From assembly GCA_963736005.1 (NCBI GenBank), contig CAVTNB010000003.1, positions 416,001 to 480,000 of the forward strand: a stretch of 64,000 bases of DNA, in the 5' to 3' direction. How positions within the stretch are numbered: the stretch's first letter is position 1; each line of letters starts with the position of its first letter. Below, piece after piece: positions 22,845 to 64,000 of this stretch. The notes beneath the pieces were generated by a model that worked only from the letters and a program-made list of their open reading frames with translations, was not told the DNA's origin and made no database searches. Source of the stretch: an uncultured Pseudomonadota bacterium (lineage in GTDB: Bacteria; Vulcanimicrobiota; Vulcanimicrobiia; Eremiobacterales; Eremiobacteraceae). A program made the position numbers and the translations under genes.

Positions 22845-23906
22845 TTAGTGCAGGGCGATACCGGCGGGATTGAGCATGGCTGGGCCCGCCACCGTCGCGT
22901 TGGGCAATGGGCCGCTACAGGCGAGATTGCCAAGGTTATTCGCTGCAAACGTGGTGATGTAACCTGACTGCCCAACCACAACCTGGGAGTTGACCACGAA
23001 CACGCTGCCAACCGAGTTCACCGCCACTCCGGTCGAATTGTTGACGCCCGTGTTCGGGCCACAGATCGCATTCACCGGAGAGATATTGTTCATCGTACCA
23101 CTGACGATCCCAGAATAGATCAGCACTTCATCGAAAGATGGCGCCGGATAGTTAACCGAAACATAGAGCCGCCCTGAAGCGTCAAATGCGATCCCCTGCG
23201 GAGTGCTGCCATTCAGCAACGTGTTCGGACCGCTGATCGTGGTCGTCGGCGGTATGTTTCCGTTCGGGTTGCTTGAGAGCGGAGGAAATTCTTCAATGGA
23301 ATTTCCGGATTGGTTGGCTACCCAGATATTCCCACCTGAGTCCAGCGCAATGAATCCAGGTGTGGAAAGACTTGTGGCTGCACCGCTAATGGTATTGCTT
23401 GCAACGTTCGAAGCCGGCGGGAAAATTTTAATGCTCGCGGTACCACCGTTGATTGCGCTGCTCGCAACGTACACGTTCCTTGCGGCGTCAACAGCCACGC
23501 CGATTGGGGTTGAGAGACCGGTGATGGAAAACGTCGGTGCGAGATTACCGTGACCCGCAACGGGATACTCGGTGACGGAGTTGCCGTTCACGCCAGAATT
23601 CGCGACATAAATCGTTCCGCTCGAGTCGATGGCGATGCCCTCAGGATGGAACATCCCGGTATTTGAGCCTTGGATCAGGCGAGCCTGATTGCAGCTGCCG
23701 CAATTGGCGTTCTGGCCGTAGACCAGGACTGAGTTGTTCGTGTAATCGGTGATGAACATCGCGCCACTCGATGGGGGCGGTGTGGGCGGCGCGGGGGTGG
23801 TCGACGAGTTATTGCACCCAGCCACGGCAAGAATGATGCCCACGGCCAGAGCTGGGATGGCCGTCACAGACCGATGGGAAAAACGCGACCTCATGGGAAT
23901 CTCCAT
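22845..23906 (-). CDS. NHL-repeat (beta-propeller) lipoprotein
   Basis: VAGC lipobox, Pro-rich linker, repeated P.GIA.D..G.IYVAN units. Confidence 0.8.
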   Translation of the reverse strand: MEIPMRSRFSHRSVTAIPALAVGIILAVAGCNNSSTTPAPPTPPPSSGAMFITDYTNNSVLVYGQNANCGSCNQARLIQGSNTGMFHPEGIAIDSSGTIYVANSGVNGNSVTEYPVAGHGNLAPTFSITGLSTPIGVAVDAARNVYVASSAINGGTASIKIFPPASNVASNTISGAATSLSTPGFIALDSGGNIWVANQSGNSIEEFPPLSSNPNGNIPPTTTISGPNTLLNGSTPQGIAFDASGRLYVSVNYPAPSFDEVLIYSGIVSGTMNNISPVNAICGPNTGVNNSTGVAVNSVGSVFVVNSQVVVGQSGYITTFAANNLGNLACSGPLPNATVAGPAMLNPAGIALH

Positions 23907-24092
23907 CTTCTACACCAACCCTAAAATTGCGGAAGCTGACAAAATATCTCCTCTTTCTTCAAGCCAAGAGCGCTGCTGGTTCGTTCACTCTAATGTGATT
24001 GTAATGTGATGAGCACGGCGATTTTTTATGAACGCTTCTCTTTCATCGGACTGCAAGGCATCGCTCCCGCTCCACAAGAAGCGGTCCGACCG

Positions 24093-24629
24093 GTGACTGA
24101 CGAGCGCGATCTCTTACGCCTAGTCCAAAGGTGCGACAAGGACGCTTTTGCCGATTTGTACGACCGTCACGCGTCGGTCGTGTACGGCATTTGCCGCCGG
24201 ATTCTCGGGGATCCCGCTGCCGCAGAGGATGTGACCCAATCCGTTTTTACCATGCTGTGGGCCAAGCCGACTGCATTCGCCGGTGGAAACTTTTCAGCGT
24301 GGATTACCAGAGTAGCCCGCAACGCCGCTCTCGACGTTGTGCGCAGCGCAGCAGTGCGGACACGCGAACCCGAAATGCCCGCAGACATCCCGGCCACAGG
24401 TGATCTCGAAGACCAAGTCGTCGCCCGGGTCCAATCCAATGCGATTGCAGGAGCGCTGGCGCAACTACCCGAGGAGCAACGCGAAGCGATCGAGCAAGCA
24501 TATTTCGGCGGCCTCTCCTATCGCGAGGTAGCGGAGAGGCTCGGTGCGCCGCTTGGAACCATCAAGAGCAGAATTCGCAGTGGTTTGCGACAGCTTTGGG
24601 ATGCTTTGCAGCAGCAGGTGGTGTTATGA
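24093..24629 (+). CDS. ECF sigma factor (SigK-like)
   Basis: AEDVTQ.VF..LW, W..RVARN.ALD, LPEEQR..I..AYF.GLSYREVA...GTIKSRIR; start may be further upstream (24006). Confidence 0.9.
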   Translation: MTDERDLLRLVQRCDKDAFADLYDRHASVVYGICRRILGDPAAAEDVTQSVFTMLWAKPTAFAGGNFSAWITRVARNAALDVVRSAAVRTREPEMPADIPATGDLEDQVVARVQSNAIAGALAQLPEEQREAIEQAYFGGLSYREVAERLGAPLGTIKSRIRSGLRQLWDALQQQVVL

Positions 24630-25291
24630 GCACGCAACACACACCCGAACTGCTTGAGATGGTCGCGGTGTATGCGCTAGGTGGCGTGGATGCGACGACT
24701 GGGGAATGTGCGGAACTTCGGGCTCACATCGCACAGTGCCCAATCTGCCAAGAAGAATTTCGTCGCAACGCGGCGACAGCCGCCGCGATCGGACGTTCTG
24801 CGGCCCAAGCACCGCCGCCAAGTCTGCGTGAGAAGATTCTCGCCTCGCTTCCGGCTCGCGTCACACCGCTTGCCCAGCGGCGGCAACCGACATGGTTCGT
24901 TCCCGCCGCCGCAGCGGCAGCGGTCGTCATCGCGGCCGGAATATGGTGGAACGCCCATCGGCAGTCCGGGCAGACGTGGGCTGCGACGTGCACGCCCACG
25001 GCACCCAGCTGTCACGCAAGTGGCGTGCTCAGTGTCGCGGGCGGAGCACTCGAGCTGCAGCTGCACGGCTTAGCCGCGCTGCCATCCGGGAAGCAATATC
25101 AAGCATGGCTGATCATGCCTGGTGCGGCTCCGAAACCCGAACCCGTTTTTTCCGCGAATCAAAGCGGCGATGGATCGGTTGCGATTCCTGAAGCGCCAGC
25201 CAAGGGAGACGTCGTGGCCGTGACGATCGAGCCCGCCGGCGGCTCGCAAAAGCCGACGACGGCGCCGTTTTTAGTCGCGAAGATCGATTGA
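24626..25291 (+). CDS. Anti-sigma factor (RskA-like, ZAS N-terminus)
   Basis: YALG, HxxxCxxC, single TM, YQAW, AVTIEPAGGS..PT; ATGA overlap with the sigma gene. Confidence 0.88.
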   Translation: MSTQHTPELLEMVAVYALGGVDATTGECAELRAHIAQCPICQEEFRRNAATAAAIGRSAAQAPPPSLREKILASLPARVTPLAQRRQPTWFVPAAAAAAVVIAAGIWWNAHRQSGQTWAATCTPTAPSCHASGVLSVAGGALELQLHGLAALPSGKQYQAWLIMPGAAPKPEPVFSANQSGDGSVAIPEAPAKGDVVAVTIEPAGGSQKPTTAPFLVAKID

Positions 25292-25299
25292 CTGAGCTC

Positions 25300-26622
25300 T
25301 TAGGCGACGGTGCTCGTGCGCAGCGCGCGGTGGAGACTCGCTGCGCCATCAGAGAGTTTGATGTCCGCCGGTGAAACTTCATCGACAATGACTTGCTGCG
25401 CCAGTACATCGAGGTAGCTCACCTCGTCGGGAGCAAGTTTGGCCAGGCCCGTTCTCGCGAGCGCGACCAATTCTTTCGCCAGCGCTAAAACGTTCACGCC
25501 TTCCGAACGAGCATCCAGGGCATCGCGCGCAACCGCCATTTGAAGTGCCCGATAGCCCCCTCGGTCGAGACGAGGTGCGAGCCGAAGCGCTTGACCGAGC
25601 GTTTCGGCATCATACGTGAGGCCTTTCCAAAAAGCGGCGAGCGCTATCGCCATCTCGGGAGTTCCGCCGTCGGCGCTGCGCAGTTCAATGTAGTCTCGAA
25701 TGCGGGCCTCCGTGAAGATCATGCTCAGCAAGGTTGGAAAATCGTCAGCGTTCGATCCGGGTATGTCCGTGAGACGCAGACCGGCGTAGTCGAGAAGCTC
25801 ACCGTCGCGCTCGATAAAGAACACCGGCACGTCCAGCATTGCCGCTACGGAGCGGCGCAAATCGAATGGCTCCTCGAGCGTGCCGGGTCCCGGCCCAGTT
25901 CGATCGGCGTCTGTATCAAGCCACACCGCGTAGCGAACTGACTTCAAACCTGTCGGCGCTCCATCGACGAACGGAGAATTGGCGAACATCGCAGCAACGA
26001 TCGGTCCCAGGCGATTCCCCAAGACATATTTTCGCCCCAGATCTTCTTCGTCAGCGTAGTCGATGCTCGTTTGCATCGCAGCGGTCCTGGTCATCATATC
26101 CCAGGCGTGCTGTCCCCGCTGCCCGAGGTAGGGGCGCATGATCGCATAGCGTTGTTTGAGCACCCAAGATTGGTCGGCCGCGCTGCGTACCGGATCGAAT
26201 CCCATGCCGACAAAGAAGATGCCTAACTCTTGCGCGCAAGCATGCAGCTCCGTTAGAAAGCGTTGCAGCGCGCTCGCGTTGTCTGAAAGTGTGCGCTCGG
26301 CGTGACCGGAAAATTCAATCTGACCGCCCGGTTCGAGCGTTATGTCACCAAATGGCATGCGCACGGCAATGATGTTGAGATCCTCTAGAGTTGGCGCACC
26401 GCCCAACGTTACAAACATCCGCAGCAGTGCTTGCACGCGATCGCGATGGATGCGCGCAAGGGTGCTCTGCTCGAAGCCGAGGATTTCATATTCGATGCCG
26501 ACACGCCAATCAGCGACCGGCTTCGCATGCCGGCGAATGTACTCGCATGCTGCATCGAGGTCGAGCTCGGGAGCGGCAAGCGCACTGCCACCGCGGTCGC
26601 GGCGAGGAATAGGTTGCTGCAT
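25300..26622 (-). CDS. Glutamate--cysteine ligase (GCS2 family, GshA/EgtA-like)
   Basis: GIEYE, TLEPGGQIEFSG, KQRY.IM..Y, MM..TA..Q, FANSPF, F.EAR...YIELR.AD. Confidence 0.88.
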   Translation of the reverse strand: MQQPIPRRDRGGSALAAPELDLDAACEYIRRHAKPVADWRVGIEYEILGFEQSTLARIHRDRVQALLRMFVTLGGAPTLEDLNIIAVRMPFGDITLEPGGQIEFSGHAERTLSDNASALQRFLTELHACAQELGIFFVGMGFDPVRSAADQSWVLKQRYAIMRPYLGQRGQHAWDMMTRTAAMQTSIDYADEEDLGRKYVLGNRLGPIVAAMFANSPFVDGAPTGLKSVRYAVWLDTDADRTGPGPGTLEEPFDLRRSVAAMLDVPVFFIERDGELLDYAGLRLTDIPGSNADDFPTLLSMIFTEARIRDYIELRSADGGTPEMAIALAAFWKGLTYDAETLGQALRLAPRLDRGGYRALQMAVARDALDARSEGVNVLALAKELVALARTGLAKLAPDEVSYLDVLAQQVIVDEVSPADIKLSDGAASLHRALRTSTVA

Positions 26623-26638
26623 TACGTAAGCGTTCTTT

Positions 26639-27943
26639 ATGAGTCCGCAGACTTTAACATTGGGGGCGATCGAGCGACTTCGCTCGGCTAGGGCGCAGAC
26701 CGTTCAACTTTTCGACCTGTCGACCTCTGATTCGGTCCTGCGGACCGAGCCAATGCCTGGGTTTCGTCCATTACTTTGGCATCTTGCCCACATCGGGGTG
26801 TACCAAAACTATTGGCTCCTGCAGCGCTGCGCGGGCCAACCCAGCATCAACCCGCTCTATGACGTCTACTTCGATCCCATCAAAACCCCACGAGAGGAGG
26901 CACCAGAGCTTCCCGATCGTTCGCAGATTCTAACTTACCTTGAGGAAACCAGCAAACGCGTTGAAGAGTTCCTCGAGCACGCCGACCTGCGCTCAGAGTC
27001 GATGGCTCACGCTAACAACGGGAAACTCACCCCGTCATATGCAGTTGATCTCGTGTACGAGCACGAGTGCCAGCACCAAGAAACGATTGCCTTTGTCTTT
27101 GCGTCGCTGCCGTACGCAAGCAAAAAGTCAGGGCCGGCGCTGATATCAGGGAAACGGGCGAACCCTCCGCGGGAAATTGTAGTACCGGCGGTGCGGGCTG
27201 CGATCGGGGGTGCACCTTTAGGATTCGTCTACGATAACGAGCTACCGCGACACGAAGTTGAGGTCAAGGCATTTTGCATCGACCGCGATTTGACGACCAA
27301 TGACGAGTATGCGCAGTTCGTTGAAAGCGGCGGTTACGCAAAGCGCGAGTGGTGGACCGACGACGGGTGGCACTGGAGAGAATCGGAAAATGTGAGCTTG
27401 CCTCTGTATTGGTCTGCAAAGCCGTTTCGAGAGCGCGGCTTTTTCACCGAAAGCGACCTGCGCGAGGATGCACCGGTCACGGGGGTGTCGTGGTACGAGG
27501 CGCAAGCGTACTGTGCGTTTCGGGGAAAGCGATTGCCAACCGAATTCGAGTGGGAAGTTGCGGCCGCATGGGATCCAGCGAGCGGCGAGATGCAACGCTT
27601 TCCGTGGGGCGACCGGCCGGCGCCGATCGAGCGGCCACAACCATTGAGCTTTGGAACTCTCCCAGTCGGCACGTGCGCGGACGGCAAGAGCGCACTTGGC
27701 CTAAACGACGTCACGACCAATCTTTGGCAATGGACGGCATCGCCATTTTCCGGCTATGCAGGTTTTGTCGCCTATCCGTATCCCGAATACTCGCAAGCAT
27801 GGTTCGATGGCGATCACTTCGTCGCGCGTGGCGGCTCCTGGTTTACTGCCCCAGCTTTAGGGCGCGCCAGCTTCCGCAATTTCTACCGGCGCCATTTTAG
27901 GCCCGCATTCATTGGCATCCGCTGCGCCCGCGACGCGGGATGA
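26639..27943 (+). CDS. EgtB-like non-heme iron sulfoxide synthase (DinB + FGE-sulfatase domains)
   Basis: WHLAH and HECQHQE iron ligands, YDNE.P.H, RLPTE.EWE.AA, YPEYS..WF, RGGSW. Confidence 0.82.
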   Translation: MSPQTLTLGAIERLRSARAQTVQLFDLSTSDSVLRTEPMPGFRPLLWHLAHIGVYQNYWLLQRCAGQPSINPLYDVYFDPIKTPREEAPELPDRSQILTYLEETSKRVEEFLEHADLRSESMAHANNGKLTPSYAVDLVYEHECQHQETIAFVFASLPYASKKSGPALISGKRANPPREIVVPAVRAAIGGAPLGFVYDNELPRHEVEVKAFCIDRDLTTNDEYAQFVESGGYAKREWWTDDGWHWRESENVSLPLYWSAKPFRERGFFTESDLREDAPVTGVSWYEAQAYCAFRGKRLPTEFEWEVAAAWDPASGEMQRFPWGDRPAPIERPQPLSFGTLPVGTCADGKSALGLNDVTTNLWQWTASPFSGYAGFVAYPYPEYSQAWFDGDHFVARGGSWFTAPALGRASFRNFYRRHFRPAFIGIRCARDAG

Positions 27944-29297
27944 AGCGTGGCTCCTTCGGGCGATCGATCGGTATCACGAGCTGTGTGCTGATCCTACGCT
28001 CGCTGGTCCCGATGTCGTCGCCTCGTTTGCCGCTGCCCAGATACGCCTCGGCCTAACCTTCGGCGGCATCGTCCAATGCCGCTCCCTTCGGCCTGCCTTC
28101 ATCACTTCCCGATCTCTTGAAGCGCTACGCAGGGCTGTCGACACGTTCTGGAACGTCATCCGCGTGATCGAACGAAGCGCGCTTGCGGATGCCTCGCTTG
28201 CCGTGCAACTCGGCTTGACCGAACAGGAACGCAACCTCATCGCCATCGATCCTGGCTACGACGATGCAACAGTCGTTTCTCGCCTCGATACGTTTTTTGC
28301 CGAACGTCCAATCGTCATCGAGTACAATGCCGACAGTCCGGCCGGCATGTCGTATCAAGCAGGGCAAGCAGGCCTCATGCGTCGCTTGCCGGTGTTTGCA
28401 CAATTCGCAACCGAATATCGCCTTGAGGAACTCCGCGCGGACGTTGCGTTGCGCGAAACATTGATTGATGTGTGGCGCGAGTTTAGCACCCGCAAGTCCC
28501 TTGCACCTCGCACGCCTTGCGTCGCCATCGTTGACGTCAAAGCGGCGGAGACGAGTGCCGAGTTCGGCCTTGTCGCCGAGGACTTCAAGACCCATGGCAT
28601 CCCGGCCGTCGTCGCGACGCCCGAGGATCTGCATCTGGTGGATGGCGAGCTGCATGCGTTTGGACGCAGAGTCGACCTCGTCTACAAACGACTGCTCGTT
28701 GCGGACTTTCTGGCGCACTATGACTTGCGCCATCCCTTGGTGCGGGCCTATGCCGCGGGAACCGTGTGCGTCGCGAGTTCGTTTCGTTGCACGATCGCTC
28801 AGAAGAAGCAGGCGCTCGCGGTTCTTTTTGACGACCGCCGTGCAACGTTGTTTTCGAACGAACAACGGCCCGCGATCGAGGAGCTGGTTGCACCGACCTG
28901 GCCGGCGCATTCGTTTGCCAGGGAGCGTTTGGAAACGGAGCGATTCGACTTCGTCCTCAAACCAAATGACGCGCATGGGGGCGAGAACGTGTTCCTTGGA
29001 TGGGAATGCGACGCCGCGCAATGGCGCGATTCGCTCGACACTGCGATCTCCGGCGACTACGTTGTTCAACGGCGAGTGCTGCCGTCTATGGCCACGTACC
29101 CCATTTTCGATGCGGCCGCTCCCCAGGACGGGGCAAAACTCACGGCGCTGCTCGAGGATCGAAACGCCTACGTCTTCCGAGGGATTCTCCGCGGGATCCT
29201 CACGCGATTGTCGGATTCGGCTATCATCAACGTTTCGCGTGGGGGCCAAGCAATTCCAACGTTTGTCATTTCGCCCGCAAACGATGCGCGCGAATAA
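27912..29297 (+). CDS. Circularly permuted ATP-grasp ligase (glutathionylspermidine/glutathione synthetase-like)
   Basis: SRLD, IEYNADSPAG, VLKP.D..GG.NV.LG, VVQ, TRLS...INVS.GG. Confidence 0.8.
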   Translation: MASAAPATRDEAWLLRAIDRYHELCADPTLAGPDVVASFAAAQIRLGLTFGGIVQCRSLRPAFITSRSLEALRRAVDTFWNVIRVIERSALADASLAVQLGLTEQERNLIAIDPGYDDATVVSRLDTFFAERPIVIEYNADSPAGMSYQAGQAGLMRRLPVFAQFATEYRLEELRADVALRETLIDVWREFSTRKSLAPRTPCVAIVDVKAAETSAEFGLVAEDFKTHGIPAVVATPEDLHLVDGELHAFGRRVDLVYKRLLVADFLAHYDLRHPLVRAYAAGTVCVASSFRCTIAQKKQALAVLFDDRRATLFSNEQRPAIEELVAPTWPAHSFARERLETERFDFVLKPNDAHGGENVFLGWECDAAQWRDSLDTAISGDYVVQRRVLPSMATYPIFDAAAPQDGAKLTALLEDRNAYVFRGILRGILTRLSDSAIINVSRGGQAIPTFVISPANDARE

Positions 29298-29334
29298 ATT
29301 CGCCATCGAGCGGACCTAAAGGTCCGCTGCTACA
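29287..29334. repeat. REP pair: truncated family A plus family B
   Basis: cgcgcgaataaattcgc followed by agcggacctaaaggtccgctgctac. Confidence 0.7.
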
Positions 29335-29540
29335 TTAGGCGGCGCGGAGGGCGAGGCTCGCGTTGAGGCCACCAAAGCCAAAACTATTCGAGAGCACGAG
29401 GCACTGGCGCAGCGGCATCGGCACGGGCGGAGTTGAGATGGCAGCCTTCACCCGGCGTTTCCAAGTTGACCACGGGCACGACGGTGCTCTCGAATACCAA
29501 TGGCACACAGCGCAGCCTCCACCGCGCCGGTTCCATCAAC
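29335..29540 (-). pseudogene. Remnant of the 3' end of a beta-ketoacyl-ACP synthase (FabF-like)
   Basis: Across two frameshifts: GTGAVEAALC..., PVVNLETPGEGCHLN, LVLSNSFGFGGLNASLALRAA*. Confidence 0.75.
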
Positions 29541-29686
29541 TCGCGTGCAACCAAGCGTTCCATGTCCCTCGCTCCCGTGTTGACTCTATCGCAATCGCTT
29601 AAAAAACCCATGAAGAGTGATGCCCGTCCGCCTAAAAATCTTATATGATATGAAAACGTCGAGCATAGGACGTTGAGGACCGAACG

Positions 29687-30010
29687 ATGCCAACTCTAAA
29701 GAAGCGTAAGGAAGAGCGCCAAACCCAACCGCCGCCTCGGGTCGATGGATCCGGAGTCATCGCTACACCTGTCTTTGACCCGATGATCCGGTCGCGCGAG
29801 CTAGCAGCGGCCGTCAGCCAGCTCATTGGAGCGGCGACCGAAATATCGGCATGGAGTGTTGGCTATCGCATCACGCCGCTGCTCAGCGGCGTTACCGTGT
29901 CCTGGGAGCGGCGGACCCTCCCGTCGCGGCAGTGGCTTCGCGAACTCGAACAGGAGATCATCACCTTCGGCATTTGCAACGGTCTCCAGGTTTGGTTCCG
30001 CGAGTTCTAA
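29687..30010 (+). CDS. Hypothetical protein
   Basis: ATG with GAGGA upstream; fills the gap. Confidence 0.55.
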   Translation: MPTLKKRKEERQTQPPPRVDGSGVIATPVFDPMIRSRELAAAVSQLIGAATEISAWSVGYRITPLLSGVTVSWERRTLPSRQWLRELEQEIITFGICNGLQVWFREF

Positions 30011-55089: not shown

Positions 55090-56000
55090 TTGAGCGCCTG
55101 CACGATCGTCTTGACGTCGTGATGCATCATGCCCTCGTAGGAGCTGAGATCGGGAGTGGTGCCCAAGGAGTCATCGTACAAATTGGTGACCGTCTTGATG
55201 CCTGCCGAATCCGCAAGTTGCTTGGCGAGCTTCGGGGAGAATTCCGGCTCGGCGAAGATTGCTCGCACATTGTGCGCTTTTGCTCTTGCAATGAGCGACA
55301 CGAGGTCGGCCGCTGAGGGTTCTTTGCCAGGCGACTGCTCGATCGCGCCGACGTCATCGATGCCATAACGCCGATCGAAGTAAAACCAAGCGTCGTGGTC
55401 GGCGATCATGGCACGCTGACTCGGCGGAATGGTTGAAATTTGCTGACGGGTCCACGCATCAAGCGCGGCAAGGTCTTTGACTTCTGCCGCGGCGTTCTTT
55501 CGGTATAAGGCAGCGTGAGCAGGGTCCGTTGCCACGAGCGCATCGGCAATCGCGCGCACGTACGAAGCGGCGTACTGCGGATCGAGCCAAAAGTGGGGGT
55601 TGGCAAATTCGCTGCCGTTTGGATGGCTCACTTGTCTGGGGAGCGAGTCGCTCAGCACCTCAATGCGCGCCTGCGGCGAGGCGTCTGCCAGCAGTTTTGT
55701 CAGCCACGCTTCCAATCCCGAACCATTTTCCACGATCACCGCGGCATGGCTGAGCTCGATGAGATCCCGCGGCGCCGGTTCGTACGTTTCAGGAGATGCG
55801 CCGATGGGCACGAGCCAATGAACCTCGAGTGCGTCCCCCGCGACCGTTTTGACAAGGGAGGCGAGGGTGGAGGTGGTCGCGACGACGATTGGTTTCCCGG
55901 AAGCGGTCGCAGCGGGAGCGGTACCCGTGCTGTGCCCGCACGCCAGCAGTGCAGCTATGGCCACGCATACCGAACCAGCTCGGATTTTATCGAGAATCAT
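55086..56000 (-). CDS. znuA: Zn/Mn ABC transporter substrate-binding lipoprotein
   Basis: LLAC lipobox, ENG.GLE, NPHFWLDP, HDAW.YF, IF.E, DSLG. Confidence 0.88.
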   Translation of the reverse strand: MILDKIRAGSVCVAIAALLACGHSTGTAPAATASGKPIVVATTSTLASLVKTVAGDALEVHWLVPIGASPETYEPAPRDLIELSHAAVIVENGSGLEAWLTKLLADASPQARIEVLSDSLPRQVSHPNGSEFANPHFWLDPQYAASYVRAIADALVATDPAHAALYRKNAAAEVKDLAALDAWTRQQISTIPPSQRAMIADHDAWFYFDRRYGIDDVGAIEQSPGKEPSAADLVSLIARAKAHNVRAIFAEPEFSPKLAKQLADSAGIKTVTNLYDDSLGTTPDLSSYEGMMHHDVKTIVQALK

Positions 56001-56009
56001 TCTCGATAA
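55987..56009. promoter_or_regulatory. Fur-family (Zur-like) operator palindrome overlapping the znuA start codon
   Basis: TTATCGAGAATCATTCTCGATAA, identical to 44884-44906. Confidence 0.85.
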
Positions 56010-56020
56010 TTATCTAGGCT

Positions 56021-56078
56021 GTAGCAGCGGACCTTTAGGTCCGCTAAGCCAAAGCGCAGCTAAAGGTGCGCTGCTACA
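56021..56078. repeat. Inverted REP family B doublet
   Basis: GTAGCAGCGGACCTTTAGGTCCGCT facing agcgcagctaaaggtgcgctgctac. Confidence 0.75.
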
Positions 56079-56084
56079 ATGACG

Positions 56085-56235
56085 CTAGGAGAGAACGGAT
56101 TCGCGATAGCTCTCCATGATGTTGCGCACGTACGCCTGGGTCTCTGGGAAAGGCGGGACGCCACCGTATTTGTCGACGGCCGCGGGGCCCGCGTTGTACG
56201 CGGCGAGGGCGAGGTCGACCTGACCATGATAATGG
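56085..56235 (-). pseudogene. 3' fragment of a lytic transglycosylase (SLT) gene
   Basis: [35 protein letters not shown]; homology and host-like composition stop at about 56235; the catalytic ES/GLMQ half is absent. Confidence 0.85.
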
Positions 56236-56286
56236 CAGGGACTAAGTGCGAACATACCTAAAGGACCGCCAACTGAGGTTTCTCCT

Positions 56287-58049
56287 ATGGTAAGTCCGTT
56301 CAAAGGTGGGGGATGTATGCGAGGGTTTCAACTAAAACCCAGGCAGACAAGAAGCTGTCGATCCCCGTTCAATTGGGCCTAATGAGGGCACATGTCAAGT
56401 CAAGTGGGTGGCAGGAGGTTGCAGCTTTCGAGGAGCCGGGGAAGTCCGGCACATTGGTCAAGCGTCTGCCTGTCTTGAATGGCCCTGATCGAGGAAGCCA
56501 CTGGCCCAGCGCCCCGCTTCGACACGGTGCTAGTTTACGACATTTCCCGCTGGGGGGCCGCAACACGGATGCAGTCTTGGCAAAGGAAGTCATACGCCAG
56601 CGGGGGATTCGAGTAATTTATCTCGCCGAGCAAACGGGCGAGACTGAGGAATCGGAGGACATTGAGGGTGCTGTTCGAATGGCTTGCCAAGATGCACAGC
56701 CGGTGTTCTGGCGCGCAAGGTTCCCAAAAGTCAACGTGAAGCAGTCAAGGAGGGCCGCTGGGGCAGCGGAGTGCCGCAAGTGTTCGGGTACTTCACACAA
56801 AAAGGAAAAGGTCTGGTCCCCAATCCACAGACGGCACCCATAGTTCTACAATGTTTCAAGAAGTACGCTGCTGGTGATCAATCCGCTCGATTGCAAAATG
56901 GCTAAACACAAATGTTTCAGCCCAGCGAGGCGGATCGTGGCGTAGTGGAACGGTCCACAACCTTCTTACTAGACGCGCGTACCTCGGGCACATAACCTAC
57001 GGCGCTGCACCGAGTGAACGGTAAGCGTGTTCGACTTTCGACTCGAAGAGAGAACGGAAAATCCTAACCAGTACAAACGACTTGTGCTGCAGAGACTTTT
57101 CGATCAGGTTCAAGAACGTCTCAGCCGTAACGATCAGAGCCGCGCAGAAGGTTGTCTCAACGGAATGTGCTCGCGGTTGTCGGACGGTGCAAGTGCGGTT
57201 CAACTCTAACCTTTCAAAAAGGTGGTGGCCCTCGCAAGGACCGCAAAAAATATCGCTCGCTGGTTCTGGCACTGCAGCCGCTGTCGCCTGAATGTTGATC
57301 CGAGGCGCAATTTCGAGGGGTGCTACGGCTACTTTCCGCAGGACGTAGTCGAGACGATGATTCGGGATAGGATGCATTTTCTTCTTGCTGCTGGTGGAAT
57401 AAAGCAAGCCGTTCAAGCATACAATGCCGCTGCTGCTCAGGCCTCGGAGCCACCGGAACTTGCTACTCTCAAAACGATGGTCGATGGTCTCAGGAAGCGT
57501 GAGCGCAGCCTCGTTGAATTCATCGGTGACGGTTCTCGAAGTTTCGATGCCGTTGCCGAGGACCTGGAGAAAGCAAACGGACTGCCAGGATGCAGAAGAA
57601 AAACCTAGCACAAGTGCTGGCTCGGGTCTGCCAGATTCAATCACCGATTGACGAAGCAGAGATTGAAGGCGCTTCTGATAAAATCCGCAAGGCCCTCAAA
57701 GCCGGAGACATTGCCAAACTAGCAGTTGTCTTACCTCACCTTGTGTCGAAGATTGAAATAGACTTCACGTTGCGACACGATACCGCAAAATACTGGCGCA
57801 GACGGGCACAAGATTTTCTTGAAACTCTTGCAAGAGAAACTCGCAAGAAGTGTGACGAGAAAAACATTTCTAGATTGGAAGTCCGCGTATGATGAAAACG
57901 ACAAATTGCAGGCCGCTGCTCATCGTGGTCTCGTCATGCATCTGAAGTACGACATAGCTAACCTGGCTTCAGCCGGTCAAGAGGCTCTCGAAGCAGTTGG
58001 CGAGTATGCCCACGGGCACACTTCGGAAGCGTTACTCTCCAAAGCCTAA
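56287..58049 (+). pseudogene. Large serine recombinase (integrase), multiply frameshifted
   Basis: YARVST..Q, SG, FDTVLVYDISR, G.W.....FGY, L.PNP..A.IV..CF..Y and Y.G motifs spread over several frames; coiled-coil C-terminal part. Confidence 0.8.
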
Positions 58050-58104
58050 ATTCAACCGCATAACCCAAGAGGGCGACGGCCCTCTTCTTTTCAAGGAAAT
58101 TTCA

Positions 58105-58455
58105 ATGTCCGCCACAACCGTAATCAATTCATCCATAAGCCCAGGCCAATCCGTCTCGGGGACTTTCATGACGTCCGCTCCCTTCAGAGGGGTAGAGATT
58201 GTTCAAGAGCAGACAATGGCCCAACCAACCTTTCCCGGCGTGTTGGTCTCCTACCAAATCAGCCTAGACAATGGCACCACATGGTCAGATGCCCAGCCGG
58301 TTCAGCACGAAGCGAATGCCAGTATAAGTGGATCGGGAAACTCAAGCTCAATCTTGCTAAATGAATTCGCCACAACTGTAAAATTCAATGCGACCAACAC
58401 CAACCGAGCCGTAGCATGCGCCTCCTTTGTGTTGGAGGCGGAATGCTTCACCTAG
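58105..58455 (+). CDS. Hypothetical beta-rich protein
   Basis: AAGGAA RBS then ATG; YQISLDNGTTW motif. Confidence 0.6.
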   Translation: MSATTVINSSISPGQSVSGTFMTSAPFRGVEIVQEQTMAQPTFPGVLVSYQISLDNGTTWSDAQPVQHEANASISGSGNSSSILLNEFATTVKFNATNTNRAVACASFVLEAECFT

Positions 58456-58837
58456 GATGAGATACTTAGAAGCCTCATCCCGAAGCAGTTGCGAAGCACC
58501 CGGAGATTCAAAACAGCTATTGTTGGATCGTTGAAAATAAATGCGGCAACCCCCAATGTCTGAACCCACTTCACCAGCTTGACAAACCGAAGGCTAAGAA
58601 ATGAGACAGAATGATTTTAATTAAGGCAGTTTGCGTTGTACTTGTGCGCCTGGTTCTTAGCTTCTTTCGGGGCAAGAACTAATGACGAGGATCGACCGGC
58701 AGATTGACCTCGTCTTAAATTCCAAGAACCCGAGGCTCGCCAAGTTTCTTTTTGGAGAACGTGGGCTTCCGTTGTTGGAAGTTATCAAGCAACTAAGGGA
58801 ACAAAAACCAACGGTAAAATCAGATAAGGATTAAACA

Positions 58838-59682
58838 ATGGGAAACTTTCAAGATTTAACCGGACAGCGTTTCGGACGGCTAACAGTACTGCGATTGGCT
58901 GATAGAACTAAACCAGGATACTACCGTTACGAGTGTCTGTGCGACTGCGGGAAAACTACCATCGTCCAGGGCAATGCCCTGCGCTCCGGTACAATAAAAA
59001 GTTGTGGGTGCCTGCGCCTGGAGCGGCTAAGGGAGTCTCTCCGCAGACGAATCGTACTGTCCGGCCCAGGGTCACCTAAATTTGCAGACCTTACAGGTCA
59101 AACATTTGGCAGGCTTACTGTTCTAGGTTATGCTGGCAAAAAAGGCGGGAGCACCTATAATTGCCTTTGCACCTGTGGCAACACAAAAATCGTCCTCGGG
59201 AGGTCTTTAACGACCGGCGCAACCAAGAGTTGCGGATGCCTGCTCATGCAGTTTGCCCAGGTTCCCTCCCGGTCATGCAGCCAGAAACTCTGTGCTGGAT
59301 GCTTACAAACGAAACGCCCGTACGCGAAGCATCCCCTGGGAACTTACGGACGAACAGGCCTTCGCCCTATTCGAACAACCTTGCTTCTACTGCGGAGCAG
59401 CGAAGTCTTAACTCTACTGGACTGGGCGTACAAGGGGGAAAACCCCGCTGGAGAACTCCCTTCCAATATAACGGCATAGACCGTGTAGACAATTCTAAGG
59501 GCTACACGTCGGATAACGTAGTACCATGCTGCCACACCCATAACAGAATGAAGCTCGATCTGACCTCTAGTCAGTTTTTAGATCAAGCGAAACAGCTTGT
59601 TATGATGTCCGAATCCCGAGCCGATCAGCACCTCTTTAACGAGTTGTCTCCTGAAGATTTCAACGGAGACTGGTTTGACTAA
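58838..59682 (+). pseudogene. Phage-type HNH-like endonuclease with duplicated DLTGQ.FGRLTV / C.C.CG / KSCGC modules, frameshifted
   Basis: Two N-terminal repeats in ORF 58838; NGIDRVDNSKGY..DNVVPCC...NRMK in the second frame. Confidence 0.75.
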
Positions 59683-59754
59683 AAAGAAAAGGAGCCCCAC
59701 TTTGCGTGAAGCTCCCTTAGTGAACCAGATTTCTATTCGATACGCTTGTCCTTT

Positions 59755-59934
59755 CTAGACCTTAGTGCTATGGGTTGCGGTCACGGCTTCTTCTAGAGCT
59801 TCCGTGAACTGTTCAATCCCGACCTTTGTCGAGAGGTTGAACACACCGGGAGTGCCGGTGTCAGTGTAGGCAATTTTCCAACTGCTCCGCTTCACGCCCG
59901 CTGGATCAGTCAGCGTGATTGTGTAGTGCTCCAT
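59755..59934 (-). CDS. Small hypothetical protein (59 aa), absent from the ORF track
   Basis: AAAGGAG RBS; MEHYTITLTDPAGVKRSSWKIAY...HSTKV*. Confidence 0.55.
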   Translation of the reverse strand: MEHYTITLTDPAGVKRSSWKIAYTDTGTPGVFNLSTKVGIEQFTEALEEAVTATHSTKV

Positions 59935-59979
59935 TTTGATTTCTCCTTTGGTTTCTAGTGATTAAATGGGGCGATAAAT

Positions 59980-61103
59980 CTAATTGATGATCACGGTGGA
60001 GGTGGTGAAGGAAATGGCTTCGCTACCGGACTGGTCACGAGTGTGGTTACTGGGATCAGAGGCATGAACGACTATGTTACAAGAACCCGGTCCAATGGGC
60101 GTAACCGTGTATTGATCTTGATTGTCTCCGATTGGATTATCTGCAATTGTTGCGATTCCCGAGCAACGATCCGTCTCAGAAAATGAATAGCTGTCGTTTG
60201 TCGCGCCGGTTGCCGTGAATGTCTGTGCGAAGGTTGCACCGGTTGCAGTAAAGTTTAGCGCCGATGGATTTAGGGAGAGCGGTGCCGAGGTGTAAGCAAC
60301 TAGTAGAGTTCCAAGCACGACTGAAGTGGTGCGCTCGTGGCCGTAATGGTATCAGTTGTTGCAGTGCCACCATTGTAGGCGTATGTAACGGCTGCGCCTG
60401 GTGCGCTCACGGATGTGGGATTGATCGTGGCAATGGAAGTCTGCGTGTTCGAGAGATTCACGGTTAGGGAATTCCCGGAAGAATCAATAAAGTTTCCGGG
60501 TCCGAGGATCGTTGCACCGCTTGCGTCCAAACCCGCGACGTTAAGTGCTTGACTCAGTGCTGTCCCCAGGAAAATTGGATTCGTTGCCAAGCTCATCGCA
60601 ATACTGGAGACAACACCATTAACGCTTATATTTATTGTGTTGGCAACTCCAGCGAGTACCAAGTAGTTCACGGTTGCGGCACCGAGTAGATTACCAGTCG
60701 CACCTGAACCTCGGTAGAGCTTCACGGCAAAAGAATCTTCCGCTACGGGTGCATTAACGGTGATCGAGCATGTGACCGGGGGTCCAGGAACGCACCGGGC
60801 GAGGTCGTGGTCAAGTTCTGGACAATCGGAGTGCCACCGTTGATTGATATACTGACCGAGCCGGTTCCGGGAGAGATAAAGAAACGGTGGAACCTCGGTG
60901 TAAAGTCAACTGATGACACTCCTGTGCCCTGGCGGTGCAGGTATACGAAAGTAGAAAGTTACTGGTGACTTTGGACCTGATTGTGAGTGTGTGACCGGCG
61001 CAAGAGCACCGCCCCCGCCACCTCCGCAACCAAACATTATGGCCGCGACAACAATGGCAAGTATGCCGACTACCAGACCTATTCGATGATGAGTCAAAGT
61101 CAT
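59980..61103 (-). pseudogene. Secreted Ser/Thr-rich lipoprotein, frameshifted
   Basis: MFGCGGGGG lipobox start; continuous beta-rich protein (FISPGT.SV.I...CSITVNAP...D.F.V...) split across at least 4 segments. Confidence 0.65.
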
Positions 61104-61760
61104 TTACTTTTTCCCTTTCTTGATCTTGAGTGAATTGCGATACAGAAAAGCAAGGACCTCGGGAGCGCAAGTCCCGTCGAATGTGCGAAGTCTCTTCTCT
61201 TAGGGATTCGTTTAGGAACGGGAACCTCTGGTCGCGAAAACCTCACGAATGCATCCTGCGAACAGGTGAACAACCGCGTGATAGACAGCGGACCAGAACG
61301 TGACGCAGAGTAGAAATCCCGTGAACCAGATCAGTGGTAGCTCGATAGCGTCGAAGATTTTCTGGTGAGTTTTCATGTGACTGCACAAAGCTCGTCGAGG
61401 TACTTAGCGTAGGCCCGGTAGACGTAGCACCGAGCTTCAGACAGACGAAGAAGAAAGCATTCGACCATCCGCTATGGATGTTTTTGTGAGTGACGACCCA
61501 GACACGCGGACCCTGCTCCTCACCTTCAGGAACGATCAAAGCCCATAACTCTGAAGTGTCGCCAACTGTAACGCGCCACAGGGCAATGACTTGCGATGGT
61601 TGTGAAAATTGCACATAGGATAATCTTCTTTCAGACGGAGCGGGCCGAGAATTATTAGTGCTCCAGCCGCTAGTAGTATTGACGGCTAGAAGCGCGGAAC
61701 CCTTGAGTGTCCGTCATACCGGAACAGGAGTAGACGGAGCTGTAGGGGACACAAGGGTCC

Positions 61761-62004
61761 ATGCCCGGATACGCAAGGTTGCCGTAACCTGAGCGCCGAG
61801 ACGTTCTCGGAGGCCCAGAAGCTGCTCATTGAGGCAACCAGGGCAGGCAGGCGGGTAAGTATGAGTGCTATTGTGGAGATTGCAGTGGCCCGCTTTGTGA
61901 AGCGACCTCCGAATGAAGTCGCGACCGCACTCAAGGGCGTAAAAGCCAGAAGATCACCGCCAGCTAAAGAAGCCGCTAAACCAACTTTCAAAAGAGAAAA
62001 TTGA
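61761..62004 (+). pseudogene. Small ribbon-helix-helix-like DNA-binding protein with 5' frameshift
   Basis: Own translation NLSAETFSEAQKLLIEATRAGRRVSMSAIVEIAVARFV...; no in-frame start codon, nearest ATG at 61761 is out of frame. Confidence 0.4.
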
Positions 62005-62005
62005 A

Positions 62006-62419
62006 ATGACCATAAATGTGCCCTTATATGCTTTTGCTCAGGATGGATTCAACGGAAGCATACAGGTCGATACCATAGTTCTGGAATGTCAGTTTGACCA
62101 ACAAGTCATTGCTCCGGTGAACCCAGGTGAAGAAGCCAATCAGATTCCACCGAATCAAACCGGTTACCGAAGAAACGAGCCGATGTGATCCCTCAATTCC
62201 CAATTGCTTCCGTGGAGCTATCCCTTGCCGGTGGCTGTCAATGCCGAGCAGTGTTTCGCAATTTTGTCGGTAACAAATCCACAGAATCAAACCACGAACT
62301 ACAATTTTGTAATGATGGATTACCTAACGATGAATATGAACACGTCCCGAGCGGTCTTTGAAACCCTGGGCATCAATCGACTCCAAGTAACGATCACCAA
62401 GTGGAATCGAGTTTCTTAA
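62006..62419 (+). pseudogene. Hypothetical protein, probably split
   Basis: Two consecutive short ORFs (62006..62188 and 62204..62419) of similar composition. Confidence 0.35.
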
Positions 62420-62815
62420 CGGCTACGAAAAAGAAGAAGTCGCAGCACTCGCCACTGAGTAGCAAAAAGAAAAGCCCCTGAAGATCAGAAGCTCAAGCGA
62501 AGGATTTAGAGTTAGTAGCGGCGGATTCTCTTGTACGAGTCCTTCGATTCCTTCGGTCTGCCTCTCTTTGGGGGCTCCAAACTCAGACCGAGAATCGAGA
62601 GCAGACTAAACCCAGACTGATAATTCTCACCAGAAGCATTGAACCCAATCTGTCGATTTCCCGAGTATGGACCAGCACCGAGGATGATGAGCGCTGACCC
62701 ATTACGCGACTTCCTGACTGATTGCGGATGTGAGCATGGCGCGGATCGACGTAGGACCCACGCCTTACCTGTCTTGGGTGATACGTAGCCGCCTATTTCG
62801 AGCATCTTGGCAATA

Positions 62816-63370
62816 TCACGCAGGGACTTGCCCTGAGCCTTCCATAGCCTTCGCGCGGCCCAAATGCTTCATCGCAGCAGGATCAGGAACGATTGAGTAC
62901 TCTGACGGGTCCATCCAAAGGGGGTCCGAGAGTAGCTTTATGGTGTGCTTGATGAGCCAGCACGTCGCGCACACGCTCAGATGCGGATTTTCTCTCCAGG
63001 CAAACACGTTCACCATGAGGTTCAAAACCATTCGACCTGTTGGTGCGGTGTCCAGTGACTCACCAAGCGAACACAGTGCAACATTGTGGCGGGCAAACAA
63101 CTGCAACAAGAACTGACAATCTGCAATGGATCGAGTTAGACGATCAAGCTTAGTGACGAGCACAGCGGAGACTTCACCAGCACGAACCATTTTGATTAGC
63201 TGATCTATGCTAGGGCGCTTGAGTGAGCTAGCGCTGGCATTGTTCACGATGATGTCACTAAGGACTCGATCCGTTGCCACCGCGTAAGCGGCTAGTTTGT
63301 GCTGCTGCATTTCAACGCTGTTGGGCTGCTCCGAGGTGGAAGTTCGAGCATACCCGAGTACCTTTGCCAT
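62816..63370 (-). pseudogene. Serine resolvase/recombinase, frameshifted after the catalytic domain
   Basis: GYARTST..Q, RP, KLDRLTRS, DT..PTGR; ASERVRDVLAH and RTPFGW continue in other frames. Confidence 0.8.
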
Positions 63371-64000
63371 TGGAAACGCCTCCGTTCAGTGCCTACCTAC
63401 TGAACATTCTACTCCTACCCTACCGAAACCGCAACCTGGCAAAATCCCTTTTTGAGGCTGTTTCCTACCCTGCAGCCTCCGATTCCATGAAGGGGACCCT
63501 TACGTCGATTCTAGCCCGGTTTCCGGCCAATTGTGGGTATTCTGGAGGGGTGGTGCCTGGACACCCTGATTCTTGACCCACCTGGACCGGGCCTGAAAGC
63601 GAGCAGCGGAGCGCGAGCGGTAGCTCGGAGAAGCCTTATGGTGCCCAGGTTGGAATCCTAAGAGTGCCGATACCTTACTTTTAGTAAGTTCTTTTTGGCC
63701 CCCTTAGCTGGGTCGGCAACGTAAGCAATTTTAGCGAGCGATGAGGTGGTCCATTGAAGACGGTCGATCCTGAGGCTTCCCTACCCTCACCGCAGCACGA
63801 TCCAAGTACGCGGGGTATCTAACCATCCAAAGCGTGATCGAACACCCCATAATGGTCAGTCTGTTCACTCCTGGTCAGAACTGCACACTGCCGTATACTG
63901 GCCGGTATTTTCAAAGTCTCTATCCATGCGGGTTTGCGGGCGAAATCCTTGCCTGATCCATCCTCGCTCCTTGGCAGGGGGAACTCTTGCGGCACCGTCC

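What the first reader, a model, noticed from the sequence alone, without database searches (positions are those of the whole stretch)
25300..29297. gamma-Glu-Cys ligase + EgtB-like sulfoxide synthase + circularly permuted ATP-grasp ligase: candidate new thiol pathway
Established: EgtA and EgtB start ergothioneine synthesis, normally with EgtC, EgtD and EgtE. None of those three is in this window. Instead the EgtB-like gene overlaps a CP-ATP-grasp ligase of the glutathione/glutathionylspermidine synthetase type. The iron ligands and the YS tyrosine region are kept, but the mycobacterial RxxR and RNWD substrate motifs appear altered (TPREEA, RNFY). Inference: the cluster makes a gamma-Glu-Cys-X peptide or thiohistidine conjugate rather than plain ergothioneine.
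Basis: partly seen in the sequence, partly recalled or inferred. Interest (0 to 1): 0.7.

Follow-up and report, generated by a model that had tools for sequence, protein, structure and literature searches.

The report
Three-gene variant ergothioneine module
In one family of soil bacteria, three enzymes of uncertain exact chemistry sit where relatives have a single gene for making the antioxidant ergothioneine, which suggests an undescribed route to it through a glutathione-like sulfur carrier.

Summary
The trio is real and conserved: a plant-type gamma-Glu-Cys ligase (gshA, not mycobacterial EgtA) head-to-head with a non-heme-iron sulfoxide synthase (NHISS) that overlaps a circularly permuted (CP) ATP-grasp ligase with the glutathione-synthetase fold. 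Closest relatives are titled Eremiobacteraceae. 19 of 32 family genomes carry all three genes. The other 13 carry no orthologue and have an EgtB-IV-type enzyme instead (motif checked in 11), mostly in the same chromosomal slot. egtD lies elsewhere in this genome beside a betaine-type transporter; egtC and gshB were not found in any of the 32. The closest outside NHISS relatives (Pyrinomonadaceae) sit with egtD and gshA. What is new: the NHISS active-site motif (FRHH--RAHQHYYNFYF) matches none of 12 published subfamily motifs, and the partner ligase differs in class from the RimK-type ligases of the known thiohistidine-dipeptide clusters. Best guess: the ligase extends gamma-Glu-Cys to a glutathione-like tripeptide that serves as sulfur donor or co-product. 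No substrate is shown. New variant of a known kind; easily tested in vitro.

The parts
25300..26622 (-). gshA: plant/alphaproteobacterial-type glutamate-cysteine ligase (GCS2), 440 aa, the genome's only GCS2 match
   Evidence: PF04107 E 1e-40; TIGR01436 268 bits; 2GWC 228 bits with the RY..M, M..R.T, R...W and E.R motifs aligned and kept across orthologues; one copy
26623..26638 (.). 16-bp gap between head-to-head starts; similarly tight in orthologous loci
   Evidence: sequence; relatives; no sigma-70 consensus site found in 23800-29800
26639..27943 (+). EgtB-branch non-heme-iron sulfoxide synthase, 434 aa, composite motif FRHH--RAHQHYYNFYF; the genome's only NHISS
   Evidence: DinB_2 + FGE-sulfatase; EgtB 318 and SenA 319 bits, both under cut-off; best PDB match EgtB-I 4X8B; motif and tree; one FGE-sulfatase match in the genome
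27912..29297 (+). circularly permuted ATP-grasp amide ligase, 454-461 aa; start either TTG 27912 or ACG 27933, where 7 of 16 loci read have ATG
   Evidence: homologues carry PF14403/PF03738; profile hits 3N6X, Cp1B, GspS, YgiC; AF2 model pLDDT 95 matches eukaryotic glutathione synthetase, GspS and YgiC/YjfC; identical overlap in 16 of 16 loci read
24006..25291 (+). flanking ECF sigma / RskA-type anti-sigma pair; synteny marker, not claimed as part of the pathway
   Evidence: Pfam; flanks both the trio and the EgtB-IV-type gene of sister genera

Best explanation
The locus is this lineage's sulfur-insertion module for aerobic ergothioneine synthesis. EgtD (elsewhere, G000:C1:1906842-1907762) makes hercynine. 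GshA makes gamma-Glu-Cys. The CP-ATP-grasp activates the Cys carboxylate with ATP and adds an amino acid (Gly most likely), giving glutathione or a homologue in a genome without GshB. The NHISS couples the thiol donor (the tripeptide and/or gamma-Glu-Cys) to C2 of hercynine with O2. With no EgtC, general enzymes (gamma-glutamyltranspeptidase, a peptidase, a class-V PLP lyase) trim the sulfoxide to ergothioneine, which the egtD-linked betaine-type ABC system may move. Shown: gene identities, folds, motifs, distribution, synteny. Inferred: every substrate. My odds are about 0.7 that ergothioneine is the end product, 0.55 that the ligase makes gamma-Glu-Cys-X, and 0.3 that the tripeptide is the NHISS's preferred donor.
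For: Only NHISS in the genome with a full EgtD (368 bits, cut-off 291); egtD in 18 of 19 trio genomes. Hercynine-pocket residues Q145, N414, F415 and catalytic Y381 are invariant in 57 of 57 clade proteins and 63 of 63 next relatives. Mutual exclusion with an EgtB-IV-type gene, 19 against 13 genomes, in the same slot between rskA and fabF in 6 of 9 loci examined, with a seventh having rskA and then a contig end. gshA in 19 of 19 and 0 of 13; full ligase orthologue in 19 of 19 and 0 of 13. Sister clade (bootstrap 100) in Pyrinomonadaceae has egtD in 19 of 20 loci, gshA in 19 of 20 and the ABC transporter in 16 of 20 by eye. Ligase fold is that of enzymes that activate the carboxylate of a gamma-glutamyl peptide, and its homologues sit near a YbdK-type Glu ligase (7 of 8 Pyrinomonadaceae loci listed). 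No GshB above cut-off in 32 family genomes or 5 Pyrinomonadaceae. In the NHISS, R90 is lost and S43 becomes Arg; both positions bind the cysteinyl part in EgtB-I (PMC11237966), which fits a moved carboxylate (inference). GGT present.
Against: Fold does not give the substrate: Z 29-31 is tied among YjfC/YgiC, GspS and glutathione synthetases at 12-15% identity, and a fungal ligase with other substrates (Cp1B; role recalled) also matches. In Pyrinomonadaceae the ligase is next to the NHISS in 0 of 20 loci, and homologues occur in 81 of 81 genomes whether or not the NHISS is there (42 of 81); 18 of those 42 have an unlinked EgtC-like gene, which points to the ordinary gamma-Glu-Cys route. The gamma-Glu-binding D416/R420 are Tyr/Phe, as in Cys-only enzymes. 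No glutathione-using gene tracks the trio: GrxD-like and PF13417 matches occur in both groups. The 19 genomes are kin and may reflect one acquisition. G000 is 84% complete.
Confidence: 0.5

Rival explanations
1. Tailored end product: the ligase and/or GshA act after the NHISS, on its sulfoxide or on 2-thiohistidine, and the cell keeps a new thio-imidazole peptide (for example gamma-Glu-Cys-thiohistidine, or a thioglutine-like gamma-Glu-thiohistidine made by the GCS2 enzyme).
For: The ligase overlaps the NHISS, not gshA, with an identical overlap in 16 of 16 loci read. No EgtC in 32 genomes. 27 positions are fixed in the 56 clade ligases but rare in 30 outside homologues, including Q446/A447 in the C-terminal loop. 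Precedent: NHISS + ATP-grasp clusters make thiohistidine dipeptides, and one YbdK-like enzyme makes thioglutine (PMC13674229).
Against: Those NHISSs are all on the OvoA branch, use histidine and pair with RimK-type ligases. This one is on the EgtB branch with N414-F415 (hercynine type per PMC11030361), and hercynine has no free amine. It stands in place of EgtB-IV while egtD is kept.
Confidence: 0.2
2. The NHISS uses free cysteine, like the EgtB-IV it replaces; GshA and the ligase form an independent branch that makes gamma-Glu-Cys or a tripeptide thiol buffer and travel with it as a thiol-protection island.
For: Positions 416/420 are Y/F, like the Cys-only OvoA and EgtB-IV consensus endings (PMC11030361 Supplementary Table 4). 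A review reports that changing Asp52 and Ala420 of the C. thermophilum enzyme favours Cys (PMC9103826). It would explain the missing EgtC.
Against: gshA is tied to this NHISS in two phyla (19 of 19 genomes; 19 of 20 loci). The cyanobacterial 'Unknown B' enzymes also lack D416/R420 yet have egtC adjacent in 5 of 5 such loci, so the loss does not exclude a gamma-Glu donor. EgtC-like genes occur in 18 of 42 Pyrinomonadaceae with this NHISS and 1 of 39 without.
Confidence: 0.2
3. The ligase does EgtC's job, removing the gamma-glutamyl group from the sulfoxide by an ADP/phosphate-dependent reverse reaction.
For: It appears in cis in the lineage where no EgtC was found.
Against: In this fold the activated carboxylate is that of the residue after gamma-Glu, not the gamma-carboxyl (recalled from glutathione synthetase and GspS). 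I know no precedent. 24 of 42 Pyrinomonadaceae lack both an EgtC-like gene and a linked ligase.
Confidence: 0.05
4. Selenoneine-type chemistry (SenA-like, selenosugar or selenocysteinyl donor).
For: SenA HMM scores as high as EgtB (319 against 318 bits); RNFY is shared.
Against: Under the SenA cut-off of 420; lacks SenA's N-E-H, H-R and final R; 4 trio genomes carry a separate SenA-motif gene (one scored 503 bits); no senB/senC-like ORF was seen next to the trio (read by eye, no family search).
Confidence: 0.05

Closest known systems
Type I EgtB pathway (EgtABCDE, Mycolicibacterium; PDB 4X8B)
   Same: Best structural-database match (338 bits against 251 for the next); iron triad, Y377/Y380, Q137, N414, R87 kept; a Glu-Cys ligase next door; EgtD in the genome.
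   Different: S43R, D48H, R90A, W415F, D416Y, R420F; GshA is plant-type and divergent; no EgtC or EgtE above cut-off; extra CP-ATP-grasp; forms its own clade.
EgtB-IV (Cys + hercynine, OvoA branch)
   Same: Occupies the same chromosomal slot in sister genera and shares egtD.
   Different: About 30% identity, other branch, single gene, no gshA or ligase orthologue in those genomes.
NHISS 'Unknown B' subfamily (FSHH--KRHQHYYNWYV; PMC11030361 Supplementary Table 4)
   Same: H48, Y-Y, loss of D416/R420; weakly supported sister group (bootstrap 68).
   Different: Keeps S43 and R90, has W415, and sits with egtC; no ligase found beside it.
ash / tgi clusters (actinothioneine, thioglutine; PMC13674229)
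   Same: NHISS plus an ATP-dependent amide ligase in one cluster.
   Different: Those NHISSs are OvoA-branch and use His + Cys, their ligases are RimK-like (one YbdK-like); here an EgtB-branch enzyme, a CP-ATP-grasp and a GshA, with egtD in the genome.
Eukaryotic glutathione synthetase / GspS / YgiC-YjfC (CP-ATP-grasp)
   Same: Whole-chain fold (TM 0.6-0.7; Z 29-31, rmsd 3.1-3.8 A over 359-414 residues); R124, D126, E137, N139, S142 align with the GspS catalytic motif.
   Different: 12-16% identity; belongs to an uncharacterised bacterial family (Acidobacteriota, Chloroflexota and others); substrates unknown.

Membership tests
NHISS (EgtB/OvoA/SenA) family | DinB + FGE domains with a three-His iron triad | tested here: met
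   (H142, H146 in 120 of 120; H51 invariant in alignment A2)
EgtB type I | composite motif xSDH--RRHQHYYNWDR (PMC11030361) | tested here: not met
   reads FRHH--RAHQHYYNFYF, while all 10 control EgtB-I loci gave the published motif
EgtB type I | catalytic Tyr at the 377 position | tested here: met
   Y381 aligned, invariant
EgtB type II | xSHHYYRR motif with the loop-1 Tyr pair | tested here: not met
   no YY insertion against 6QKI/8QF6; R43 and A88 differ
SenA | xNEH--HRHxHYYN(F/Y)(F/Y)R; NF041186 above 420 bits | tested here: not met
   319 bits; motif differs
OvoA / EgtB-IV / AshA / TgiA branch | RxYH--D motif, OvoA-like branch | tested here: not met
   165 bits on TIGR04344; groups away from EgtB-IV
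Ergothioneine sulfoxide synthase (function) | C2 sulfoxidation of hercynine | not testable with these tools
   inferred from pocket residues, egtD and synteny
EgtA (TIGR03444) | score above 370.8 bits | tested here: not met
   111 bits
Plant/alphaproteobacterial GshA (TIGR01436) | score above 463 bits and conserved substrate-pocket motifs | tested here: inconclusive
   268 bits, under cut-off but best hit; motifs aligned to 2GWC and conserved
Circularly permuted ATP-grasp superfamily | permuted ATP-grasp fold with R-x-D and E-x-N motifs | tested here: met
   Pfam cut-offs not reached by this protein
Glutathione synthetase (function) | gamma-Glu-Cys + Gly ligation | not testable with these tools
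   fold tied with GspS and YgiC
ash/tgi thiohistidine-dipeptide clusters | OvoA-branch NHISS with a RimK-like (or YbdK-like) ligase | tested here: not met
   RimK/LysX folds score Z about 9 against 29-31 for CP-type; NHISS on the EgtB branch

The most novel reading that the evidence does not exclude
A fifth kind of aerobic ergothioneine route in which a new NHISS subfamily takes a glutathione-like tripeptide as its sulfur donor, the tripeptide being made by a bacterial CP-ATP-grasp that replaces GshB. That would also give a first function to a ligase family found in all 81 Pyrinomonadaceae genomes searched; alternatively the trio yields a new thio-imidazole peptide.
Probability: 0.35. Interest if true: 0.75.

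Novelty: new variant of a known kind. Interest (0 to 1): 0.57.

Why it matters
Sulfoxide synthases are being mined actively for new chemistry, and subfamilies are defined by exactly the residues that differ here. This gives a motif-defined, two-phylum subfamily with a natural control (sister genera that use one Cys-type enzyme in the same slot) and a partner ligase from an uncharacterised family common in soil Acidobacteria. Three purified enzymes would settle whether a sulfoxide synthase can use glutathione, whether bacteria have a eukaryote-fold glutathione synthetase, and how ergothioneine is finished without EgtC. If the outcome is plain gamma-Glu-Cys to ergothioneine plus a side peptide, it is a modest addition to the EgtB type list.

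Tried and rejected
Single-sequence fold of the ligase failed (pLDDT 36); redone with an alignment. No structure of the NHISS was predicted, both jobs being used, so pocket geometry rests on alignment. Single-sequence PDB, Pfam and NCBIfam searches missed the ligase. The ligase tree did not resolve its origin (support 0.14 for its grouping; the family orthologues were dropped by my de-duplication so only the window's protein represented the clade). Metagenome scan: of 80 loci only one clear and one partial member of this subfamily by motif, and no ligase beside any NHISS, so it added no new contexts. Of 116 length-filtered representatives from the top 150, 2 carry the RHH..NF(Y/F/W)F motif. Glutathione-user genes were uninformative. 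No BshC in 5 genomes. No dedicated EgtE in 5 genomes, only generic class-V enzymes. No sigma-70 promoter consensus. No RNA holder was listed, which is no evidence. Earlier-findings look-ups gave nothing relevant. No complex prediction was run, as binding is not claimed. Naowarojna 2019 was not held, so the Ala420 point comes from a review passage.
Full report
Observation. The three ORFs are present as described. Gene 1 (25300-26622, minus strand) is a GCS2 ligase closest to plant/alphaproteobacterial GshA (TIGR01436 268 bits, EgtA 111 bits, both under cut-off; plant 2GWC best in PDB). Gene 2 (26639-27943) is a DinB + FGE non-heme-iron sulfoxide synthase (NHISS) scoring 318-319 bits on EgtB and SenA, under both cut-offs. 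Gene 3 (to 29297) had no family hit on its own, but homologues carry PF14403/PF03738, a profile of 86 sequences hits 3N6X, Cp1B, GspS and YgiC, and a model at pLDDT 95 matches eukaryotic glutathione synthetases, GspS and YgiC/YjfC over the whole chain, far above RimK/LysX (Z about 9). gshA is head-to-head with the other two.

Organism and genome context. The closest titled records are mostly Eremiobacteraceae / Vulcanimicrobiota. G000 is 84% complete. It has one NHISS, one GCS2, a full EgtD on another contig beside a betaine-type ABC transporter, a gamma-glutamyltranspeptidase and several class-V PLP enzymes but no EgtE above cut-off. No GshB and no EgtC (also none by tblastn with an EgtC-like protein) were found.

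Distribution in the family (32 genomes, G000 included). 19 genomes in 6 genera have the NHISS orthologue (57-72% identity; one frameshifted copy scores lower), gshA and the ligase. The three are adjacent on one contig in 18 and split by a contig end in 1. The other 13, in 4 genera, have no GCS2, only weak partial ligase matches, and an NHISS of about 30% identity with the EgtB-IV-type motif (checked in 11 of 13; one was skipped for a stop in my extension, one is split). Of 9 such loci examined, 6 lie between rskA and fabF as the trio does in most genera, 1 has rskA and then a contig end, and 2 lie elsewhere; four trio loci of one genus also lie elsewhere. egtD is in 18 of 19 and 11 of 13. EgtC and GshB are above cut-off in 0 of 32. 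These genomes are kin, so the co-occurrence may be one event retained across genera. G233 and G260 (trio) and G128 (EgtB-IV) are flagged unpublished; without them the split is 17 against 12. The SenA score below rests on G233.

Outside the family. The next NHISS relatives (46-51%) are named Pyrinomonadaceae or Blastocatellia where named. 42 of 81 genomes of that family have a match at E 1e-78 or better (the tally includes unpublished G291 and G278). In 20 loci fetched from them, egtD was present in 19, gshA in 19 (one cut by a contig end), a betaine-type ABC transporter in 16 by eye (one checked by HMM), and the ligase in none. Ligase homologues (32-38%) occur elsewhere in 81 of 81 genomes, with a YbdK-type ligase nearby in 7 of 8 loci listed. 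An unlinked EgtC-like gene (192 bits, cut-off 219) occurs in 18 of the 42 and 1 of the other 39. No GshB in 5 tested.

Active site. Using the 17-position composite motif of Kayrouz et al. (PMC11030361; passages and Supplementary Table 4 read), the window reads FRHH--RAHQHYYNFYF and the Pyrinomonadaceae FRHH--RSHQHYYNFFF, while control loci gave the published EgtB-I, SenA and Unknown B motifs, and EgtB-II-like and EgtB-IV-like ones. It matches none of the 6 characterised and 6 uncharacterised motifs listed; the paper leaves 4,580 sequences as 'other', which may include it. In a 45-sequence tree (one dropped for a stop; labels assigned by motif) the two groups are sisters at bootstrap 100, with Unknown B next at 68. 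Hercynine-side residues and the catalytic Tyr are kept. Donor-side residues S43, D48, R90, D416 and R420 (roles from passages of PMC11237966, PMC9103826, PMC4768315) are all changed. Loss of D416/R420 could mean a Cys donor, but cyanobacterial Unknown B enzymes share that loss and have egtC adjacent in 5 of 5 loci; a sixth Unknown-B-like locus (L211) had none. The R90-out, R43-in swap is nearly specific to this clade: 2 of 116 representatives share the full pattern and a third has the swap with NWFT.

Mechanism. The simplest reading of an in-place swap for EgtB-IV with egtD retained is that the trio delivers the same net step toward ergothioneine. GshA supplies gamma-Glu-Cys. A ligase of the glutathione-synthetase fold beside a GshA, in genomes without GshB, most plausibly extends it. 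Its identical overlap with the NHISS (16 of 16 loci read, of 19 tried) suggests the product matters to the NHISS. Pyrinomonadaceae could supply the ligase in trans, but their universal copies prove nothing either way. All substrates are inferred; rivals are listed with odds.

Comparison with print. Abbott et al. 2026 (PMC13674229; parts 1-4 of 5 of the main text, part 1 of 6 of the supplement and one term search read; figures not visible) describe about 100 NHISS + ATP-grasp clusters making thiohistidine dipeptides. They state that all lie on the OvoA branch and that the ligases are RimK-like except one YbdK-like, so this locus falls outside that set, though I could not see their cluster figure or most of the supplement. 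Passages of PMC10696552 and PMC10903977 gave background. Searches for EgtB + sulfoxide synthase + ATP-grasp found only that paper; ergothioneine with Eremiobacterota or with Pyrinomonadaceae found none; a glutathione-donor search found none; two searches on circularly permuted ATP-grasps listed no functional study of this family (listings only). The library lacks most subscription papers.

Verdict. Real, conserved and not described in what I could search: a new motif subfamily of ergothioneine-type sulfoxide synthase with a newly recruited ligase. Most likely a variant route to a known metabolite, with a fair chance of new enzymology. Interest 0.57.

Noticed in passing
window 27933-27935: The codon where orthologous ligases appear to start is ATG in 7 and ACG in 9 of 16 loci read; the change is silent in the overlapping NHISS frame. 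Either ACG initiation by coupling or use of an upstream TTG/ATG.
   Followed up: partly
L360 (G000:C1:187423-190739): A second, distant CP-ATP-grasp-like gene converges on a class-V PLP aminotransferase; weak matches of this kind occur in nearly all 32 family genomes.
   Followed up: no
L138-L141: Four trio-bearing genomes have a separate SenA-motif gene, suggesting selenoneine alongside ergothioneine in this family; L138 is from an unpublished genome.
   Followed up: partly
L325-L329: A monothiol glutaredoxin-like gene is present in 5 of 5 genomes tested, including two with no GCS2 ligase at all, so its thiol partner there is unexplained.
   Followed up: no
L330-L359, L044, L046: CP-ATP-grasp homologues occur in 81 of 81 Pyrinomonadaceae genomes, often two copies, near YbdK-type ligases; in another class of the window's phylum they follow a gene of about 325 aa with no Pfam or NCBIfam hit. 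Function unknown.
   Followed up: partly
window 24006-25291: An ECF sigma / RskA-type anti-sigma pair flanks the NHISS slot in both trio and EgtB-IV genera, sometimes co-directional with the NHISS; possible stress regulation.
   Followed up: no
window 29687-30010: A 107-aa ORF without Pfam hit is conserved (58-85%) between the trio and the aldehyde-dehydrogenase gene in several genera.
   Followed up: no
window 56000-64000: GC falls from about 60% to 50-54%, and an ORF that looks like a resolvase by its N-terminus (recalled motif) lies at 62816-63370, suggesting a mobile island edge.
   Followed up: no
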